Shown: in pieces, positions 1-9,339 of the stretch | Position numbering within the stretch: the stretch's first letter is position 1 | Layout of the letters: every line of letters starts with the position of its first letter | Source: the human T2T-CHM13v2.0 reference genome, Homo sapiens | DNA length: 64,000 bases | Reading direction: 5' to 3' (one strand) | Assembly: GCF_009914755.1 (NCBI RefSeq) | Contig: NC_060936.1 | Made by a program: the position numbers and the translations under genes | Notes under the pieces: generated by a model | What the model was told of the DNA's origin: nothing | The model's input: only the letters and a program-made list of their open reading frames with translations | Database searches by the model: none

Positions 1-492
1 ACTTAACAATAACAAGCAATTGAGAAAGGACTCCATTCAATAAATGGAGCTAGGATAACTGGCTAGCCATATGCGTAAGGTTAAAACCAGACCCCTTCCT
101 TTCACCATATACAAAAATCAACTCATCATGAATAAAAGACTTAAATATAAAACCTAAAACTATAAAAATCCTAGAAGAATTTATACAAAATAGCATTCTG
201 GACATAGGCCCTGGCAAAGATTTCATGATGAAGACTCCAAAAGTAATTGCCAAAAAAAAAAAAAAAAAGAAAAAGAAAAAAAAACACAAAAAAAAACCCA
301 GAAACTGACAAGTGCAATTAAACTAAAAAGCTTCAGGACAGCAAAAGAAACTATCAACAGAGTAAACAGACAACGTAGAGTATGGGAGACAATATCTGCC
401 AACTACGCGTCAGAGAAAGATCTAATATCTGGAATATATAAGGAGCTTAAACAATTCAACAAACAAAAACCAAACAACCCCATTAAGAAATG

Positions 493-944
<452 letters not shown>

Positions 945-1418
945 GGCAAAGACATGTGATCAAGCTAAATGCCCATCAGTGGTGGACTGGATAAAGAACA
1001 TTTGGTACATATACACCATAGAATACTACACAGCCATAAAAAGAGTATCATGGCCTTCATGGCAATATGGATAGAGGTGTAGACCATTATCCTAAGCAAA
1101 TTAATGCAGGAACAGAAAACCAAATACTGCATGTTTACTCTTCTAAGTGTGAGCTAAACATTGAGTATGCATGGACACAAAGAAGGGAACAATAGACACA
1201 AGGGGTAGAGTGTGGAGGATCAGGATCAAAATACTACTTCTCAGGTACTATGCTCGTTACCTGGATTACTTGATAATCTGTACACCAAACACCACAACAC
1301 ACAATTTACCCATGTAACAAATCTGCACATGTGACCCCTGAACCTAAGATACAAGTTGGATAAAACAAAGTGAAGAAAAATATTTTATTTTTGTTTTGTA
1401 ATAATGTGCTTTGAATAG

Positions 1419-1822
<404 letters not shown>

Positions 1823-3677
1823 TGATGCATAATCAAAGATAATTATAGCAAGTTGCATCTTCAAGGAGAATGCCAACATCAATCTCATTGAACCTCTTTG
1901 AATTAGTTTACTATCCTATAACTAAAAGAAGAGATTTATAGTTTACTGAAGTCAAAAAGTGGGCTTGAATTAAGGCTGCTTATATTGTATAAGTGAAATG
2001 CCAGAGTATTTTACTTTTATGTTTCTGTGGCCCAAGGGAATTAAAATAGATATTATGCCCTGAATCCCAGTGTCACTGTGACTGCCTGTGAACCATGTCA
2101 GAACCAATATCAACAAAGGCCTCTTCAGCTAAGACTTCCCAGTGTTAGAAAGACAAGAACAGTAGGATCTCTAAAGCCCTTATCATAATAGCCTACACAA
2201 TCAATATCACTGCCACAAAATCATGCAGCCAGGTCACTAAGGCATCTGCAGTCATCACTAACACTGATCTCACCTGGAGAAGCTGTATGGAGACTACACC
2301 ACTGCACCCACCTAGTACCAGAACAACTGCACTCTGCCCAACCGATGCCCTCCAGCCTGTCGTCAGGTGAAAGTTTTTCCCTATGAAAGTCATTCTCTGA
2401 AGTTTGGAAGAGGAGACTGTACCAGAAGATGCGCAAGCATTAATGTGGGAATACCAGAAACATGAAAATGCAAGGGAACATGATGCCACCAAGGGAACAT
2501 GAGAATTTCCCAGTATCTGACCCCCAAATTTACAGAAATTTATGAAGTTATTGAAAAGGAATTTAAATTAATGATCTTAAGAAAACCAAGAGAGACAAAA
2601 TAGTATACAAATAGAAAATTCAATGAAATCAGCAAAGTAATTCATGATCTCAATGACAAATTCAACAAAGAAATATATATCATAAAAAAGAATCAGAAAT
2701 CTTGAAGCCAAAGATTTCAATCAATTAAGCAAAAAAAAAAAAAAAAAAAAAAAAGCAATAGAGAGCTACAATAGTAGACTAGATAAAGCCAAAAAAGAAT
2801 CTGTGAACTTCTTGAAAATCAGTCTTTTGAAATGACTCATTCACAGGAAAAAATAAAAAAAGAATGAAAAGGGGTGAAGACAGCCTATGAGATTTATGGG
2901 ACGTCATTAAGTGAAGAAGTATTGCATTATGTTCTTTAAGAAGGGAAGAGACAGAGAAAGGGACTAACAGCTTATTTAATGAAATAAATTATGAAAAATT
3001 CTGAAAACTAAGTCTTGGGAGAGATATGGATATTCAGATCCCTAAAGCGCACAGATCCCAAAATAGATTAATCTAAAGAGGCACATTATAATCGTATTAT
3101 CAAAAGTCATATACAGAGAGAATTTTAAAAGCAACAGAGAAAAGCATCAAATTACATATAAGGGAATTTCCATAGAACATTAGCAGATTTCTCAGTAGAA
3201 GCCTTACAGGCCAGGGTAAAATGGCATGGTGCTGAAAGGAATAAGAATAAAACAAACACAAAACTGCTAGCCAGACATGCTGTCCTTCAGGAAAGAAGGA
3301 TAAATAAAGTGTTTCAAAAATAAACAAAAGCTGAAGGAATCCATTATCATTAGACCTGCCTTATAAGAAACAATTAAGGAAGTCCTTCAAGGAGAAACAA
3401 AGGGATGATTATTACTAACATGAATACATACAAAAGTATAAAACTTTCTTCTAGAGGTAATGGTGGTGCATAAATCATACCTACACCTAGTATGAAGGTA
3501 GAAATCAATTAATTCATTAATAATAGCCAATACATTGGTTAGAAGCACACAATGTAAAAAGATGCATATTTTGACATCAAAAACAAATTGTGTATCAGGA
3601 GGAGCATAAAAATCTAGAGATTTTGTATGCAACAGAAGTTGAGTTTTTATCAGCTTAAAAAAGTATATCTGTAAGAT

Positions 3678-4250
3678 TGTAACCAAGCTGCTTAGCTTCA
3701 AACTGCATTTTAAAAACTGTTTTTCTTTCTTTCCTCTTCTCTCCCCAGTCTCAGGACACAGCATTGAGACAAACTACAAATGCATTTTCTAGAACGTACT
3801 GTGAACCTCCATTCTCTTTCCCTTTCCACTTTATCCAACCATGCCTTATGCACATTTATTTACCTAAATGCTTGTCAAATGCACATCATGCTCACTTATC
3901 TGGTCATGTATTTTCTTAGAAGCTTCAGGACATGAATACTGACACAGAACAGACACCTCCAGAATTCTCTCCCCATACAGACCACCAAAAATTTTAACTG
4001 GCAAAGGGTCCAGCTGCTCACTGCTTGTAGAAAGAAGCCAAAATAACAAGAGTGAGGTGTGATAAAAAGAGAGGAGACTTTATTATCCATGCTGGCAAGG
4101 GGAAAAGTGGAAATTATTTTGGAAGAATTCCACCCACTTTTCCCCGTGTTAGCACAGACAATTAAAACTCCTCTCTTTTTATCACACTTTGTTTTGTGAT
4201 TTTGGTTTCTTTCTACAAGCGGCAAACAGCCGGAGCCTTTGCTGGTTACA
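3678..4250 (+). mobile_element. Solo ERV1-class LTR (family uncertain, possibly LTR24-like) inserted in the L1 inter-ORF region
   Basis: Starts TGTAACC and ends GGTTACA. 4-bp TSD AGAT at 3674-3677 and 4251-4254. The L1 sequence resumes seamlessly (taagat|gttttatgtaaacctcatgg). Confidence 0.85.
3993..4250. repeat. Long imperfect inverted repeat (arms 3993-4110 and 4134-4250)
   Basis: Manual alignment gives ~93/118 identity to the reverse complement, with a perfect 20-bp core (4057-4076 / 4168-4187). Confidence 0.93.
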
Positions 4251-7200
4251 AGATGTTTTATGTAAACCTCATGGCAACCACAAAACAAAAATCTACAACA
4301 GATACACAAATGATAAAGAGAAAGGAATCAAAGCTTAGCACTACAGAAATTATCAAATAACAAAGGTAGACAACAAGAAAGGAAAAAGGAACACAGAAGC
4401 TACAAAATAACTAGAAGATAAATAAAATGGCAGTAGTAAGTTCTTACCTATTAATAATAACTTTGACTGTAAATGGATTTTGTTCCCTAACCAAAATCAT
4501 GTAGTTGCTGAATGGATTAAACAAGATTCACTGAAGTGACCCACTTAGGCCTTAAGGACACATGAAGGCTGAAAGTAAAAAGATGGAAGGGGAACATCCA
4601 TGTAAATGCCATCCATAAGAGAGCAGGAGTGGTTATACTTACATCTGATAAAATAGACTTCAAATCAAAAGCTGTCACAAGAGACACAGGTCATTTTTTA
4701 ATAATAAAAGGGTCATTCATTAAGATAACTCAACCACTGTAAATATTTATACACCCAGTATTGGATGAGCTAAATATATAAAGCAAATATCAATGAACAT
4801 GAAAAGACAAATAGATAGCAATACAATATGGTACTTCAAAATCCCACTTTCAACAATGAATAGATCAAGCAGACAGAAAATTAATAAGGTGATACTGGAC
4901 ATAAATTGAACTTTTGACAAAATTGCCCTAACAGACATATACAGAACTTCCCTTCCAACAGAAGCAGAGTACTTATTTTCCTCTAGTGTACACAGAACAT
5001 TCTCCAGGATAGATTGCATGTTAGGCCACAAAAAAAGCCCTAACAAACTTAATAAGATTGAAATAATATTTAGTATAATTTTAGACCACAATGATATGAA
5101 ACTATAAGTTAATAACTGGAGTAATCTTGTGTAGTTCACAAATATGTGGAAATTAAACAACATGCTCTTGAACAATCAATGGGTCAAAGAAGAAATCAAA
5201 AGAACAATTTAAAAACATCTTCAGGCAAATGATAATGGAAACACAATATACCAAAACTTATGGGATGCAGCAAAAGCAGTTCCAGGAGGAAAGTTTATAG
5301 CAGTAAATGCCTACAATTAGAAAGAAGAAAGACCCCAAATAAATATTCTAACATTACCCCTCAAGGAATGCAAAACGAATAAACAACTAACCAAAAATTA
5401 GCTGATGGGAATAATAAATATCAGAACAGCAGTAAATCAAATGAAGTACAGAAAAACCATAAAAATAATTAATAAAACTAAAGTTCACTTTTTGAAGAAC
5501 AACAAAATTTACAAACTCTTAATGAAAAGAAGAGAAAAGACTGAAATAAATAAAATCAAAAATAAAAGTGAAGAAATTCTAACAGGCTTCTCAAAATAAA
5601 GAGGATCGTAAGGGAATATTACGAAGAATTATATGCCAACAAATTGGATAAACTAGAGAAAATGGATAAATTCCTAGAAAAATATAAGCTACCAATATTA
5701 AGTCAATTAAAGTGATTTGAGAAGAAATCAAAACCCTTCCCACAAAGAAAAGCCCAAAACCAGATGATTTTAGAGCTGAATTTTACCAAACATTCAAAAA
5801 TAATTTATATCAATATTTCTAAAACTCTTCTGAAAAATAAAGCTAGAAGTGTACTTCCAGACACATTTTATGGGGCCAGCATCATCTTAACACCTAAGTT
5901 AGATAAAGATATCACAAGAAAAGTATGGTTAATTTCTCTGAGGAACATTCATGCAAAAATTCTTAGTAAAGTATTATCAAAACAAATCCAACAACACATG
6001 AAAAGATTATACATTGTGTTCATGTGAGATTTTTCCATGGCATGCAAAACTGATTTATCGTACATAAATCTATCAGTGTGATACATCACATTAACAGGAT
6101 CATCATAATTAACATAAAAAAAGCATTCAACAAAATCCAACATCCTTTCTTGATAAAAACCTTCAACAGTTTAGGTATAGAAGGAACGTTTATAATAATA
6201 AAGACTTTATGAAAAACCTACAGCTAACATTATAATCACTGGAGAGAACTGAAAACTTCCACTAAGATCTGGTAAGGCAAGGATGCCTACTCATGCCACT
6301 TCTATTCAACATAATACTGGAGTACTAGCAAGAACAATCAGACAAGAAAAAGAAATTAAATGTATCTAATTGAAAAAGAAGTAAAATTATCTCTATTTGC
6401 AGATGATGTTGTCCTATATGCAAAAACCTCCAAAGATACCACAAAAACATTATTACTAATAAATGAAATCACTAAATTGCAGAATACAAAATCAGCATAC
6501 AAAAATCAGTGGCATTTTTCTACACAAATAATGATCTAACTGAAAAGAAATAAAGAAAAACCCCACATACAATAACATTGAAAAGATAAAATAAAATACT
6601 TTGGAATAATTTTAACCAAGGAGGTGGAAAACTATATTGGTATGGTAAAACTTTACATTAAAACTATAAAATATTGATGAAAGAAATTGAAGAAAACACA
6701 AATAAGTGGAAAGATAGCCCATTGCTCATGGATTGGAGGATTTAATATTATTAAAATATCCATACTATCAAGAGCAATACACAGATTCAATGCAATCCCT
6801 ATCAAAATCCCAATGGCATACTTCACAGAAATAGTAAAATTATCCTAAAATTTGTATGAAAACGTAAAAGACCCCAAGTAGGCATAGCTATTCTGAGAAA
6901 GAACAACAAAGTTGGAGGCATCACACTTCCTGATTTAGAAGTATATTACAAAGCTATAGTAATCAAAACAGTAGCTTACTGGCATAAAAACATAAACATA
7001 GATCAGTGTGGCACAGGACAGAGACCCCAGAAATAGATCCAAACGTATATGGTCAACTAAGTCTTGACAAGCACACCAGGAAGACACAATAGGGAAAAAT
7101 AGTCACTTTAATAAATGGTGTTGGTAAAACTGGGTTTCCACATATAAAAGAAGGAAATTGGATCCTTAACCTACATTATACACAAAAATCAACTCAAAAT

Positions 7201-9339
7201 GGATAAAAGACCTAAGTATAAGACCAGAAATAATAAAACTTCTAGAAGAGAACATGGGGGAAATGTTTCTGGCTGTTGGACTTGGCAATGGTTTTCTGTA
7301 TTTCATATCAAATGCTCAGGCCACAAAAGCAAAAATGAATAAATGGAATTACATGAAACTAACAAGCTCTGCACAGCAAAGGAAACAGCTAACAAAATGA
7401 AACAGCTGCCTATGAAGTGGGAAAGATATTCACAACTCATATATCTGATAAAGGGTTAATATCCAAAATTTTATAAAGAACTCATACAGTTCAATCGTGG
7501 AAAAACTAATAACCTGATCAAAAAATGGGCAAAATACCTGGAAACACATTTCTCCAAAGAAGGCATAAAAATAGCCAGCATGCATATGGAAAGGTGTTCA
7601 ACATCATTAATTATCAGGGTAATGCAAATGAAAACCACTATGGGATATCACCTCATATCCATTAGATGGCTATTATCAAAAAGCAAAAGATAACAAATGT
7701 TGACAAATGTGTAGAGTAAAGGAAACTCTTGTACTCTGTTCTTGAGAATGTAGATTGTTACAGCCATTTTAGAAAACAGTATGGAGGTTTCTAAAGAAAT
7801 TAAAAATAGAACTACCATATGATCCAGCAATCCGTCTTCTGGGTATATACTCAAAGGAAATGAAGTCACCACCTCATGAACATATTTGCATTCCCATGTT
7901 CATTGTGGCATCATTCACAATAGCAAAGGGATAGAAACAACCTGTGTCTGTTGATAAACAAATGGATAAAGAAACTGTGGTACATATATACAATGGAATA
8001 CCATTTCGTTCTAAAAAAGAATGAGATTTTGCCAGTTGCCACAACATAGATGAAGCTGGAGACACTACGTTGTTAAATAGGTCAGACACAGAAAAATATT
8101 ACATCATCTCATTTATATGTTAAATTTTAAAACAACAACAAAAAAAATCAAAAATACAGATATACAGAAGAAAACCATGGTTACCAGGATTGGAAGAAAG
8201 GGGAAATGAACAGATATTCAGATGAACAGGTCAGAGGATACAAAGCAGCAGGTATGTAAGATGAACAAGTCTAGAGATCTAGTGTACAACATATAACTTT
8301 CCAACTTTAGCAACCACCATTATTAAAATTAAACAAGAAAATGTACAAGCAAAAACTTAATTTCTTCATAAAGTTACCAATATTTATTTCTAAAAGCTCT
8401 TAGAGATACCTATGTCTTATCTACTGCACAAATATGAGCTCATATTCAGAGCTAATACTCCGGTTAGAATGATAAAATGACAATGCCTGTATGTCTGGCT
8501 GTCTTTGAGTTTGTGGTGGAGTTGCATATCAGCATTTCAAATATCCAGCTCTCATTATTACTAAATCATTTTTTTCATATAGCTACCAATTACCACAACA
8601 GTTGTCAAATCAGACAAGTAAATAATATAAACCCGTTTTGTGAAAAAATAAAAAAAATTATAGTTTATACAAGTTAAAAAAGCATTACCTCTATCTGTTT
8701 CCTATATTTTAAAGCAACAAGGGTTGTTTGAGTATATTTTTATCCCTCTGGTGCTTAGAATAAAAATTTTAGTTTAGGAGGAAGTTTTTTATTAAATTGA
8801 GAAAGCAAGTTGAGGCTGATAGCAGAGAAATGGTTGCTATCTTATTTGTGTATGTATGACTCAAGGTTACGCAGGTAAGCCTGAGGCTACATAAATATGA
8901 ATGTGCCCAAATCTGGAATGATTTTAAATCCTCTAATGATGTAGAAAGCAGGAAAGCAAATTAGAAGGATGACATTATTGCTAAGCAAATTTGAGAATAG
9001 GATACCTCTAAAGGGAAGTAAATTATATTCACTGGCTAAAAAAACTTATACTTTTTTATTTAGTATTTTTTTGAATTTAGAGATATTCAGAGTATCTCTT
9101 CTGTGATATGCTTGATAAAAGATATTGAAAAGTGTTGTTATTGAACAAACCTTAAAATTTAAAGATGGTATATATCTCTGATAGGTTAGTAAATAATGAA
9201 ACTGATCTAGCCTTAGGAATATGAGAATTTTCATATATTATATCAAAATAATATTTATGGTTTCAAGTTTATGTCATTACTTTAAAAAATATTTCATATG
9301 AAGTAGAAGTAATTTAATAGGGAACTATACATACATTTA

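What the first reader, a model, noticed from the sequence alone, without database searches (positions are those of the whole stretch)
3678..4254. Solo ERV LTR with a built-in inverted copy of its own terminal 118 bp: ~258-nt fold-back hairpin in ACSS3 pre-mRNA
Seen: the LTR (TGTAACC...GGTTACA, TSD AGAT) contains at 3993-4110 the reverse complement of its last 117 bp (4134-4250), including a decayed copy of the att end (tttaactgg vs tgtaaccag). By hand about 93/118 positions pair Watson-Crick, ~8 more pair as G:U and ~4 are A:C mismatches. There is a perfect 20-bp core (GTGTGATAAAAAGAGAGGAG) and a 23-nt loop that itself carries gtggaaatt/aattccac, a possible fold-back priming point. The arms differ largely by independent transition/CpG decay, so the duplication is old, probably near insertion time. 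Inference: it arose by a template-switch, fold-back or auto-integration-like event. It would give a long single-element dsRNA (ADAR, Microprocessor or dsRNA-sensor substrate) or a DNA cruciform. A simple repeat annotation may not flag this structure.
Basis: partly seen in the sequence, partly recalled or inferred. Interest (0 to 1): 0.7.

Follow-up and report, generated by a model that had tools for sequence, protein, structure and literature searches.

The report
Old viral LTR with fold-back scar
A roughly 50-60-million-year-old retroviral end piece in an intron of ACSS3 carries a mirror copy of its own tail plus the virus's primer-binding site, which looks like a frozen copying error of reverse transcription and not something the human gene uses.

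Summary
Window 3678-4250 is a solo LTR with a 4-bp target duplication (AGAT). Paralogues of the host repeat show the uninterrupted site. Arms 3993-4110 and 4134-4250 match at 94 of 118 positions around a 23-nt loop. The RNA fold is -147 kcal/mol, z -16.9.

It continues into the family's 5-nt spacer and an 18-nt tRNA-Ile primer-binding site (3992..3970, minus strand). It then joins U3 at a 5-6-nt microhomology. The palindrome centre is a short hairpin native to the family, about 30 nt after a TATA-like box.

So the inverted unit has the shape of strong-stop DNA. The best reading is that minus-strand strong-stop DNA primed itself, copied itself and the tRNA primer, then jumped into U3. About 240 nt of U3, including the promoter, were lost before integration.

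No other locus examined carries the palindrome. Arm divergence gives about 51-56 My, equal to the age of the insertion.

The family is class I by TSD and HERV-I-type by PBS. Its Repbase name was not obtained. No sign of host function was found, and editing and small RNAs were not testable here.

The parts
3674..3677 (.). Left copy of the 4-bp target-site duplication (AGAT)
   Evidence: Three paralogues of the host repeat show one AGAT at the uninterrupted site.
3678..3969 (+). 5' part of U3. It starts with the terminal inverted repeat TGTAACC and is homologous to the first ~298 nt of ~700-nt family copies.
   Evidence: Identity to other copies is 72-81% over 271-296 aligned nt.
3970..3975 (.). 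Junction microhomology (tcccca). It reads both as the continuation of family U3 and as the first bases of the inverted PBS.
   Evidence: TCCCC is intact at this place in 3 of 16 family copies and one letter off in several others.
3970..3987 (-). Inverted 18-nt primer-binding site complementary to the 3' end of tRNA-Ile(AAT)
   Evidence: It matches seven tRNA-Ile-AAT genes of this genome at 15/18. It is the only one of 127,966 18-mers in the window to reach 13/18 or more. L013 and L099 carry the same PBS after their LTRs.
3988..3992 (-). Inverted 5-nt spacer that separates U5 from the PBS in proviral copies
   Evidence: It is identical (5/5) to the spacer after the LTR in L013 and L099.
3993..4110 (-). 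Arm 1: inverted copy of U5 plus R, from the att end to the native R hairpin. It carries AATAAA on the minus strand at 4084..4079.
   Evidence: Pooled identity of its reverse complement to 18 family copies is 77.3%.
4111..4133 (+). Loop: the native loop of the family's R-start hairpin, in the same orientation as U3 and arm 2
   Evidence: The plus orientation scores higher in 13 of 16 copies. The other 3 have 9-nt loops and are uninformative.
4134..4250 (+). Arm 2: native R (from the hairpin's 3' stem, to about 4185) plus U5 (about 4186-4250). It has the poly(A) signal variant ATTAAA at 4161-4166, a CA, then a GT-rich stretch, and ends GGTTACA.
   Evidence: The LTR anatomy follows PMC3601003. 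The R/U5 border is inferred.
4251..4254 (.). Right copy of the target-site duplication (AGAT)

Best explanation
This is a solo LTR of an old class I (gamma-like) endogenous retrovirus that used tRNA-Ile as primer. Its odd middle is a scar of reverse transcription, made before integration. Inferred sequence of events: (1) Minus-strand strong-stop DNA (the complement of R-U5) was made from the tRNA primer. (2) Its 3' end folded back on the short hairpin at the start of R and primed on itself. (3) Reverse transcriptase copied the strong-stop DNA back through R and U5, the 5-nt spacer and the 18 nt of the tRNA primer, producing a plus-sense PBS. (4) The new 3' end (...GGGGA) paired with UCCCC about 292 nt into U3 at the 3' end of the genomic RNA. 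Minus-strand synthesis went on from there, in place of the normal R-to-R first strand transfer. (5) Plus-strand synthesis and the second transfer gave both LTRs the order U3(1-292), inverted PBS-spacer-U5-R, hairpin loop, R-U5. About 240 nt of U3 with the TATA-like box were lost. (6) The DNA still had both att ends, integrated with a 4-bp duplication, and later recombined to a solo LTR. What is shown directly: the parts, their order and orientation, the exact 18-nt PBS, the microhomology, the single-copy status, the borders, and the equal age of arms and insertion. Today it is an imperfect 118-bp inverted repeat in the sense strand of ACSS3 intron 8. It can fold in the pre-mRNA, but it shows no sign of having been kept for that.
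For: Private to this locus. In 28 other loci, 22 hold one arm-homologous stretch and 6 hold none within reach; none holds two. With arm-loop-arm as query, no other place covers more than 154 of 274 nt. Family copies are about 700 nt, and the window lacks their middle ~240 nt. Inverted unit. Past the inverted U5 end, the minus strand reads the same 5-nt spacer as L013 and L099 (5/5). It then reads a PBS matching tRNA-Ile-AAT at 15/18. Among the 65 tRNA genes tested, the best gene that is not Ile or Ile-like scores 13/18. Among all 127,966 18-mers of the window the next best is 12/18. L013 has 16/18 with both mismatches of CpG-decay type. Similarity to L013's leader stops right after the 18th PBS base (3/10), where U3 takes over. 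Junction. Six letters are shared by U3 and the inverted PBS. Centre. A 9-bp stem is native to the family: 81.5% of 135 cells pair, against 48-58% when slid, and two pairs change on both sides. A TATA-like box is present in 15 of 16 copies, 24-31 nt before the three bases that precede the stem, so R probably starts at the stem. Loop orientation is as the model predicts. Timing. Arm K2P is 0.247, half 0.124, against a private branch of 0.108-0.150 for the window's U3 part. Integration is proven by the duplication and empty-site paralogues. Self-priming of strong-stop DNA at the R hairpin is an established in-vitro reaction (PMC6088434). RT can switch templates on very short complementarity (PMC4668388).
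Against: The start of R is inferred from the TATA-like box. No transcript 5' ends were available. Support for the native stem is statistically weak. RNAalifold gave no consensus. Shuffles reached the observed pairing in 35 of 500 and the covariation score in 83 of 500. The two double changes may each be a single inherited event. TCCCC at the junction site is intact in only 3 of 16 decayed copies. The review calls self-primed products dead ends and says they were not detected in endogenous reactions of HIV-1 particles, so a rescue is unusual. Arm 2 has drifted further from the family than arm 1 (16 against 8 of 25 differing columns, one tie; p = 0.15). That is compatible with chance but remains unexplained. 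A DNA-replication template switch in an integrated provirus would give the same letters. Without orthologous loci from other species the two cannot be separated strictly. A 5-nt spacer between the CA end and the PBS is longer than the 2 nt I recall as usual.
Confidence: 0.7

Rival explanations
1. Post-integration template switch during host DNA replication or repair (four-point model). In an integrated provirus, the nascent strand left U3 of the 5' LTR at TCCCC. It copied the opposite strand from the end of the PBS back to the R hairpin, then returned at the hairpin. A later LTR-LTR crossover downstream of the rearrangement left this solo LTR.
For: Switch-and-return events that replace a stretch by the reverse complement of a nearby stretch are documented in human and ape genomes (PMC5453318, passages read). 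Search listings alone report that they create RNA hairpins and miRNA-like stems (PMC8794818, PMC10710096). Microhomology exists at both switch points: tcccca and the native 9-bp stem. The resulting letters would be the same.
Against: The outer switch point falls exactly at the 18th base of the PBS. That is the natural end of a tRNA-primer copy, but only one of hundreds of possible places for a replication switch. The paper says it does not try to model long-range or repeated switches, and here 141 nt replaced about 240 nt. The crossover that made the solo LTR would have had to fall in the last ~140 nt. Arm divergence leaves no measurable time between insertion and duplication.
Confidence: 0.15
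2. Two elements. A second provirus of the same family inserted in the opposite direction into the first LTR. Two deletions then removed everything except its R-U5-PBS.
For: Nested insertions of retroelements are common (general knowledge). The inverted piece has a true element feature, a PBS next to U5.
Against: It needs three events with two coincidences. One deletion must end exactly at PBS base 18. The other must join the two R hairpins at the same homologous position, to give a symmetric centre. No second target duplication and no trace of the second element's U3 or other LTR is present. The arms differ from each other about as much as expected for two copies identical at insertion. Four CpG sites show TG in one arm and CA in the other, which is independent decay of one starting sequence (read by eye).
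Confidence: 0.03
3. One reading: a duplication made in place within the solo LTR, or an auto-integration-like event joining the processed U5 end to an internal LTR site.
For: The inverted arm includes a decayed copy of the att end.
Against: The inverted copy reads through the att end into the spacer and PBS. The genomic flank of the solo LTR is AGAT plus host repeat, not a PBS, so the template was not the solo LTR in place. In auto-integration the CA end is a DNA end and nothing lies beyond it (recalled knowledge of integration chemistry).
Confidence: 0.02
4. The hairpin has been kept by the host for a function, such as an editing-dependent or small-RNA-producing structure in the ACSS3 pre-mRNA. 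This concerns present use and could coexist with any of the origins above.
For: The fold is strong. The element lies in the sense strand of intron 8. Long imperfect intronic inverted repeats are typical ADAR substrates (recalled).
Against: The arms diverged at the same pace as the unpaired U3 part: 0.124 per arm against 0.108-0.150. There are 8 A:C and 6 transversion mismatches and no sign of arm homogenisation. No Rfam family comes near its gathering score (best 31.8 bits against 83). No RefSeq functional element lies in window 1-9000. The element is 7.8 kb and 16 kb from the nearest exons.
Confidence: 0.05

Closest known systems
Self-priming of retroviral minus-strand strong-stop DNA (described for HIV-1 at the cTAR hairpin)
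   Same: The 3' end of strong-stop DNA folds on the hairpin at the start of R and is extended on itself, giving an inverted R-U5 (PMC6088434, passages read). Here the palindrome is centred on a native hairpin at the predicted start of R, and its arms are R-U5.
   Different: The published reaction is in vitro. It is called a dead end and was reported as not detected in endogenous reactions of virus particles. Here the product seems to have gone on by a microhomology jump, completed and integrated in a germ line. It belongs to an old gamma-like ERV, not a lentivirus.
Short template-switch mutations in DNA replication (four-point model)
   Same: A stretch is replaced by the reverse complement of a nearby stretch, with a return to the original template. 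This creates or lengthens hairpins (PMC5453318).
   Different: The copied stretch here ends exactly at a tRNA-defined border and includes a PBS that the present locus lacks. This fits a viral polymerase on viral templates better than a host fork.
Ordinary solo LTRs of class I human ERVs
   Same: TG...CA ends with a 7-nt inverted repeat, a 4-bp duplication, a poly(A) signal and a GT-rich stretch. The family has a TATA-like box (anatomy from PMC3601003; solo-LTR origin from PMC11007075).
   Different: It lacks about 240 nt of U3 including the core promoter. It carries an inverted R-U5-spacer-PBS inside the LTR.
Dating proviruses by 5'/3' LTR divergence
   Same: Two stretches that were identical at integration diverge independently. 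PMC4724089 uses percent divergence x 2.5 My. The two arms serve the same way: 20.3% gives about 51 My.
   Different: The clock lies inside a single solo LTR, which normally cannot be dated this way. It has only 118 sites, so the error is large.
Inverted Alu pairs as intronic double-stranded RNA (recalled, not searched)
   Same: A long imperfect intramolecular duplex in a pre-mRNA
   Different: This is a single element with a 23-nt loop and arms of 118 nt. No editing data were available here.

Membership tests
LTR of a class I (gamma-like, ERV1-type) endogenous retrovirus | TG...CA termini with short inverted repeats | tested here: met
   The window has TGTAACC...GGTTACA. The same ends, with decay, appear in the 17 copies printed. 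The motif class is described in PMC3601003.
LTR of a class I (gamma-like, ERV1-type) endogenous retrovirus | 4-bp target-site duplication (the class rule is recalled: 4 bp class I, 6 bp class II, 5 bp class III) | tested here: met
   The window has AGAT, with empty-site paralogues. Perfect 4-nt duplications were read by eye in 6 of 17 other copies (L002, L004, L005, L014, L015, L022). The rest are decayed, truncated or not solo.
LTR of a class I (gamma-like, ERV1-type) endogenous retrovirus | U3-R-U5 anatomy: TATA-like box, AATAAA, GT-rich stretch | tested here: met
   A TATA-like motif is present in 15 of 16 copies. AATAAA followed by CA and a GT-rich run is seen in family copies. The window has ATTAAA at 4161-4166 and keeps AATAAA in the inverted arm.
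LTR of a class I (gamma-like, ERV1-type) endogenous retrovirus | Inner genes of gamma-like type in proviral copies | not tested
HERV-I in the sense of the PBS naming convention | PBS complementary to the 3' end of tRNA-Ile | tested here: met
   L013 16/18, L099 15/18, the window's inverted copy 15/18. The best gene that is not Ile or Ile-like scores 13/18 among 65 tRNA genes, with one representative per anticodon outside Ile. The gene labelled Ser-ACT that also scores high is 68/74 identical to an Ile-AAT gene. The convention is described in PMC11007075. PMC4724089 warns that PBS use is an unstable trait.
Named Repbase groups HERVI/LTR10 or HERVIP10F/LTR10F | LTR sequence similarity to the reference LTR of that group | not testable with these tools
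A 21-nt word of the LTR found no paper. PMC4724089 gives LTR divergences of 10-19% for HERVIP, and it is unclear how this compares with copy-to-copy K2P (median 0.30). Per-group PBS tables are in closed supplements.
Product of self-primed minus-strand strong-stop DNA | Inverted R-U5 centred on a hairpin at the 5' end of R | tested here: inconclusive
   The centre is on a native 9-bp stem. The stem begins about 30 nt after the TATA-like box. The true start of R was not measured.
Product of self-primed minus-strand strong-stop DNA | The outer end of the new arm lies at the template's 5' end, with a copy of the 18 nt of the tRNA primer and no leader sequence | tested here: met
   Spacer 5/5, PBS 15/18, then only 3/10 to L013's leader, after which U3 follows.
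Auto-integration product | Junction at the processed CA end of U5 | tested here: not met
   The inverted copy reads through the CA end into the spacer and PBS.
Known structured RNA or miRNA family (Rfam 15) | Score at or above the family's gathering threshold | tested here: not met
   There are 8 matches at E up to 1 in window 3400-4600. The best is 31.8 bits against a threshold of 83, and the matches are generic hairpin hits.
Palindromic LTR subfamily (inverted repeat present in the family's founder) | Other copies carry both arms | tested here: not met
   0 of 28 other loci. No other place in the genome search covers more than 154 of 274 nt. The searches score only the best candidates and skip closed regions.

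The most novel reading that the evidence does not exclude
This locus is a germline-fixed natural record that a self-primed minus-strand strong-stop DNA, treated in the literature as a dead-end by-product, can be rescued. The rescue would be a microhomology jump into U3, followed by completion of reverse transcription and integration. Its signature (an inverted R-U5-spacer-PBS ending at PBS base 18 inside an LTR) could be searched for across genomes as a fossil record of reverse-transcription errors. The two arms also give a solo LTR its own clock.
Probability: 0.55. Interest if true: 0.65.

Novelty: new variant of a known kind. Interest (0 to 1): 0.5.

Why it matters
For the human genome it is most likely a neutral fossil. 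It is a promoter-less solo LTR deep in ACSS3 intron 8 that can fold into a long imperfect hairpin.

Its value is for retrovirology and repeat annotation. The part list matches what a self-primed strong-stop DNA would leave if it were rescued: a native R hairpin at the centre, R-U5 arms, an exact 18-nt tRNA-derived PBS, and microhomology into U3. That reaction is known from the test tube and was reported as not seen in virus particles.

If the reading holds, genomes keep a searchable record of such errors. Solo LTRs bearing them can be dated from their own arms. Repeat annotation would probably split such an element into oppositely oriented fragments and miss the PBS, so similar cases may be hidden in plain sight.

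Three library searches listed no paper describing an integrated or endogenous LTR of this structure. Older subscription literature on aberrant retroviral DNA forms is not in the searched library.

Tried and rejected
Palindromic DNA transposon or MITE (TTAA-like ends at 3993 and 4247). I considered this first. The arms are not at the ends of the inserted unit, the unit has LTR anatomy and a 4-bp duplication, and other copies have one arm only. Rejected.

An earlier reading of the left junction. MAFFT aligned window 3976-3999 with family U3 further downstream. I briefly took two U3 motifs resembling the att end as the microhomology. The PBS match replaced that reading.

Arm 1 being closer to the family than arm 2, as a possible sign of a second source. 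Pooled identity is 77.3% against 71.6%, and the split of differing columns is 16 against 8 with one tie. The binomial p is 0.15, so nothing was built on it.

Consensus structure of the native hairpin. RNAalifold returned no pairs. A named 9-bp stem was counted instead, with weak statistics.

Rfam gave nothing.

RefSeq soft-masking shows no masked stretch of 100 b or more between 1798 and 5133, and no functional element in 1-9000. This is uninformative for repeat naming.

Naming the family. A 21-nt word of the LTR found 0 papers. No repeat library is available, so the Repbase/Dfam name stays open.

The preprint 10.1101/2023.06.12.544617 and PMC10986323 were opened and held nothing relevant. PMC12220202 concerns reverse-transcribed tRNA insertions, which is a different thing.

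Papers seen only as search listings: PMC8794818, PMC10710096, PMC7954356.

Recalled and not seen in any call: a 2001 paper on self-priming of strong-stop DNAs of several retroviruses; 1980s-1990s work on rearranged unintegrated retroviral DNA and strand-transfer errors; the stop of primer copying at the modified base after 18 nt of the tRNA; the neutral rate of 2.2e-9 per site per year; the TATA-to-start distance of about 30 nt; the usual 2-nt spacer between CA and the PBS.
Full report
1. The observation.

Window 3678-4250 begins TGTAACC and ends GGTTACA. AGAT lies on both sides, at 3674-3677 and 4251-4254.

The repeat finder reports two collinear inverted segments. They are 3992-4049 with 4194-4251 (81%) and 4057-4110 with 4134-4187 (83%), around a 23-nt loop. 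Aligned end to end, the reverse complement of arm 1 and arm 2 share 94 of 118 positions. There are 18 transitions, 6 transversions and one 1-nt indel, giving K2P 0.247.

As RNA that is 94 Watson-Crick pairs, 10 G:U, 8 A:C and 6 other mismatches. By eye, at least 10 of the 24 substitutions are of CpG-decay type. Four sites show TG in one arm and CA in the other.

The RNA fold of 3985-4258 is -147.1 kcal/mol, against -65.4 +/- 4.85 for 200 shuffles, z -16.85.

2. It is an insertion with exactly these borders.

Both flanks belong to one older, very abundant repeat. The first look found 159 candidates for the left flank and 2,238 for the right. In several paralogues the two flanks are adjacent. 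Three of them were fetched and aligned with the two window flanks as separate rows. They read ...TGTAAGATGTTTTAT... with a single AGAT. This confirms the borders 3678 and 4250 and a 4-bp duplication.

3. The family.

An own-genome search with 3678-4254 found 78 matches, from 84 candidates of which 40 were scored. Those matches fall in 39 other loci. A second search added further loci. These are lower bounds.

Seventeen copies were cut out with short flanks. Sixteen of them were aligned with the window. A normal copy is about 700 nt and has these parts:
- a 5' part matching window 3678-3975;
- about 240 nt that the window lacks;
- a TATA-like box;
- a short hairpin;
- AATAAA, a CA and a GT-rich run;
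- the end ...GGTTACA.

This is the LTR anatomy described in PMC3601003 (passages).

Perfect 4-nt duplications flank 6 of the 17 other copies (read by eye). By the recalled class rule this points to class I.

Two copies are followed by a 5-nt spacer and a primer-binding site for tRNA-Ile(AAT). L013 scores 16/18, with both mismatches of CpG-decay type. L099 scores 15/18. The test set was 65 tRNA genes of this genome: 52 one-per-anticodon representatives and 13 more Ile genes. The best gene that is not Ile-like scored 13/18. A gene labelled Ser-ACT that also scores high is 68/74 identical to an Ile-AAT gene.

By the PBS naming convention (PMC11007075) this is a HERV-I-type class I element. PMC4724089 cautions that PBS use is unstable. 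The Repbase/Dfam name could not be obtained, for three reasons:
- a 21-nt word search found no paper;
- the per-group PBS tables of PMC4724089 are in closed supplements.

4. The inverted arm is private to this locus.

In 28 other loci, 22 contain one stretch that matches both query arms on opposite strands. Six contain none within reach. None has two arms. With arm-loop-arm as query, only the window is covered throughout, and no other place covers more than 154 of 274 nt.

5. The key point: the inverted copy does not stop at the LTR end.

Read on the minus strand, the inverted U5 end (3993) is followed by two features. The first is 3992..3988, the same 5-nt spacer as in L013 and L099. The second is 3987..3970, which matches the tRNA-Ile PBS at 15/18.

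Of all 127,966 18-mers of the window on both strands, this is the only one to reach 13/18 or more. The next best is 12/18.

Immediately after the 18th base, similarity to L013's leader ends (3/10). The sequence then continues as the reverse complement of U3. The six letters 3970-3975 fit both U3 and the PBS. TCCCC is intact at that U3 place in 3 of 16 copies and one letter off in several more.

A solo LTR has no PBS, and the flank here is host repeat. So the inverted unit was copied while U5 was still joined to a PBS. It spans exactly R (from the hairpin), U5, the spacer and 18 nt of PBS. That is the extent of strong-stop DNA plus the copied part of the tRNA primer.

6. The centre.

The inner 9 bp of the arms are a stem that the family has natively. 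In 15 copies, 81.5% of 135 cells pair, against 48-58% when the partner is slid. Two pairs differ on both sides between subfamilies.

The statistics are weak. Shuffles reached the observed pairing in 35 of 500. RNAalifold found no consensus.

The loop is native and lies in the same orientation as U3 and arm 2 in 13 of 16 comparisons. The other three have 9-nt loops and are uninformative.

A TATA-like box lies 24-31 nt before the three bases that precede the stem, in 15 of 16 copies. So R probably starts at the stem. This is an inference from the usual box-to-start distance.

7. Mechanism.

The simplest path has these steps:
- Minus-strand strong-stop DNA folds back on the R-start hairpin and primes itself. 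This reaction is established in vitro for HIV-1 (PMC6088434).
- It copies itself and 18 nt of the tRNA primer.
- Its 3' end then pairs with UCCCC in U3 of the genomic RNA, and synthesis continues. RT can switch templates on very short complementarity (PMC4668388).
- Plus-strand synthesis and the second transfer give both LTRs the observed order.
- The att ends are intact, so the DNA integrates, as the AGAT duplication shows.
- LTR-LTR recombination later leaves the solo LTR.

The window's minus strand reads exactly as this product should, including the loop orientation.

A variant starting from plus-strand strong-stop DNA explains the left junction. It needs a further switch at the hairpin and gives wrong ends, so I rank it lower.

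The rearranged LTR lacks the TATA-like box and about 240 nt of U3. The element was probably transcriptionally dead from the start, which fits its being single-copy.

8. Rivals.

A host replication template switch in an integrated provirus (PMC5453318) would give the same letters. It does not explain why the copy ends at PBS base 18. It also needs a crossover in the last ~140 nt to make the solo LTR.

A nested second element with two deletions needs three events and two coincidences.

Duplication in place and auto-integration are contradicted by the read-through into the PBS.

9. Age.

The arms were identical when made, so they work like a 5'/3' LTR pair. The estimates are:
- 20.3% raw divergence x 2.5 My per percent (rule in PMC4724089) gives about 51 My;
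- K2P 0.247 at the recalled rate of 2.2e-9 gives about 56 My;
- the private branch of the window's U3 part, from pairwise distances only, is 0.150 on average and 0.108 at minimum, giving 49-68 My.

The duplication is therefore as old as the insertion, within a wide error for 118 sites. Family copies differ from each other by a median K2P of 0.30 over 120 pairs. No other species could be examined here.

10. Present state.

The element lies in the sense strand of ACSS3 intron 8 (NM_024560.4). The intron is 24,407 nt, and the element is 7,761 nt after exon 8 and 16,075 nt before exon 9.

It keeps a poly(A) signal variant, ATTAAA at 4161-4166, inside the duplex. Rfam gives nothing near a gathering score. 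RefSeq lists no functional element nearby. The arms have decayed as fast as the unpaired part.

Editing, small RNAs and cruciform formation could not be tested.

11. Verdict.

This is a real, single-copy, old solo LTR. Its internal palindrome is best read as a fossil of self-primed strong-stop DNA rescued by an illegitimate strand transfer. It is a new variant of a known kind of element. It is of moderate interest to retrovirology and repeat annotation, and probably neutral for the host.

Noticed in passing
window 3458-3677 and 4251-4530: The LTR sits inside an older, very abundant repeat. The first look found 159 and 2,238 candidates for the two flanks, and in several paralogues the flanks are adjacent. 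The repeat was not named. Its A-rich, coding-like look suggests a LINE, but that is an impression only.
   Followed up: partly
L006 (C23:76531274-76532588, minus) and L029 (C4:72403394-72404705): These two family copies share almost the same 25 nt just upstream of the LTR but have different downstream flanks. They may be 3' LTRs with inner proviral sequence. Not pursued, because the stretch could adjoin an envelope gene.
   Followed up: no
L013 1160-1164; L099 92-96; window 3992..3988: The spacer between the LTR's CA end and the PBS is 5 nt and identical in all three witnesses. This is longer than the 2 nt I recall as usual for retroviruses. It would imply an unusually long overhang removed at integration.
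   Followed up: partly
G000 C14:67755696-67755826 and C14:67787893-67788023: Two family 3' ends lie 32 kb apart on the same strand with near-equal scores. This may be a segmental duplication. The distance is too great for one provirus.
   Followed up: no
L010 (C16:54411306-54411574) and C16:54412359-54412498: The 5' part and the 3' end of one family copy lie about 800 nt further apart than in other copies. This suggests a later insertion inside that LTR.
   Followed up: no
window 3993-4110 versus 4134-4250: The inverted arm is closer to other family copies than the native arm. Pooled identity is 77.3% against 71.6%, and it keeps the canonical AATAAA that the native arm lost. The difference is not significant (p = 0.15).
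   Followed up: yes
window 4188-4201 and 4276-4289: A 14-nt inverted repeat (93%) links the GT-rich part of U5 with the host flank. It is probably chance.
   Followed up: no
window 1798-5133: The RefSeq soft-mask table has no masked stretch of 100 b or more here, although the region holds an LTR inside another repeat. That mask does not capture old repeats.
   Followed up: partly
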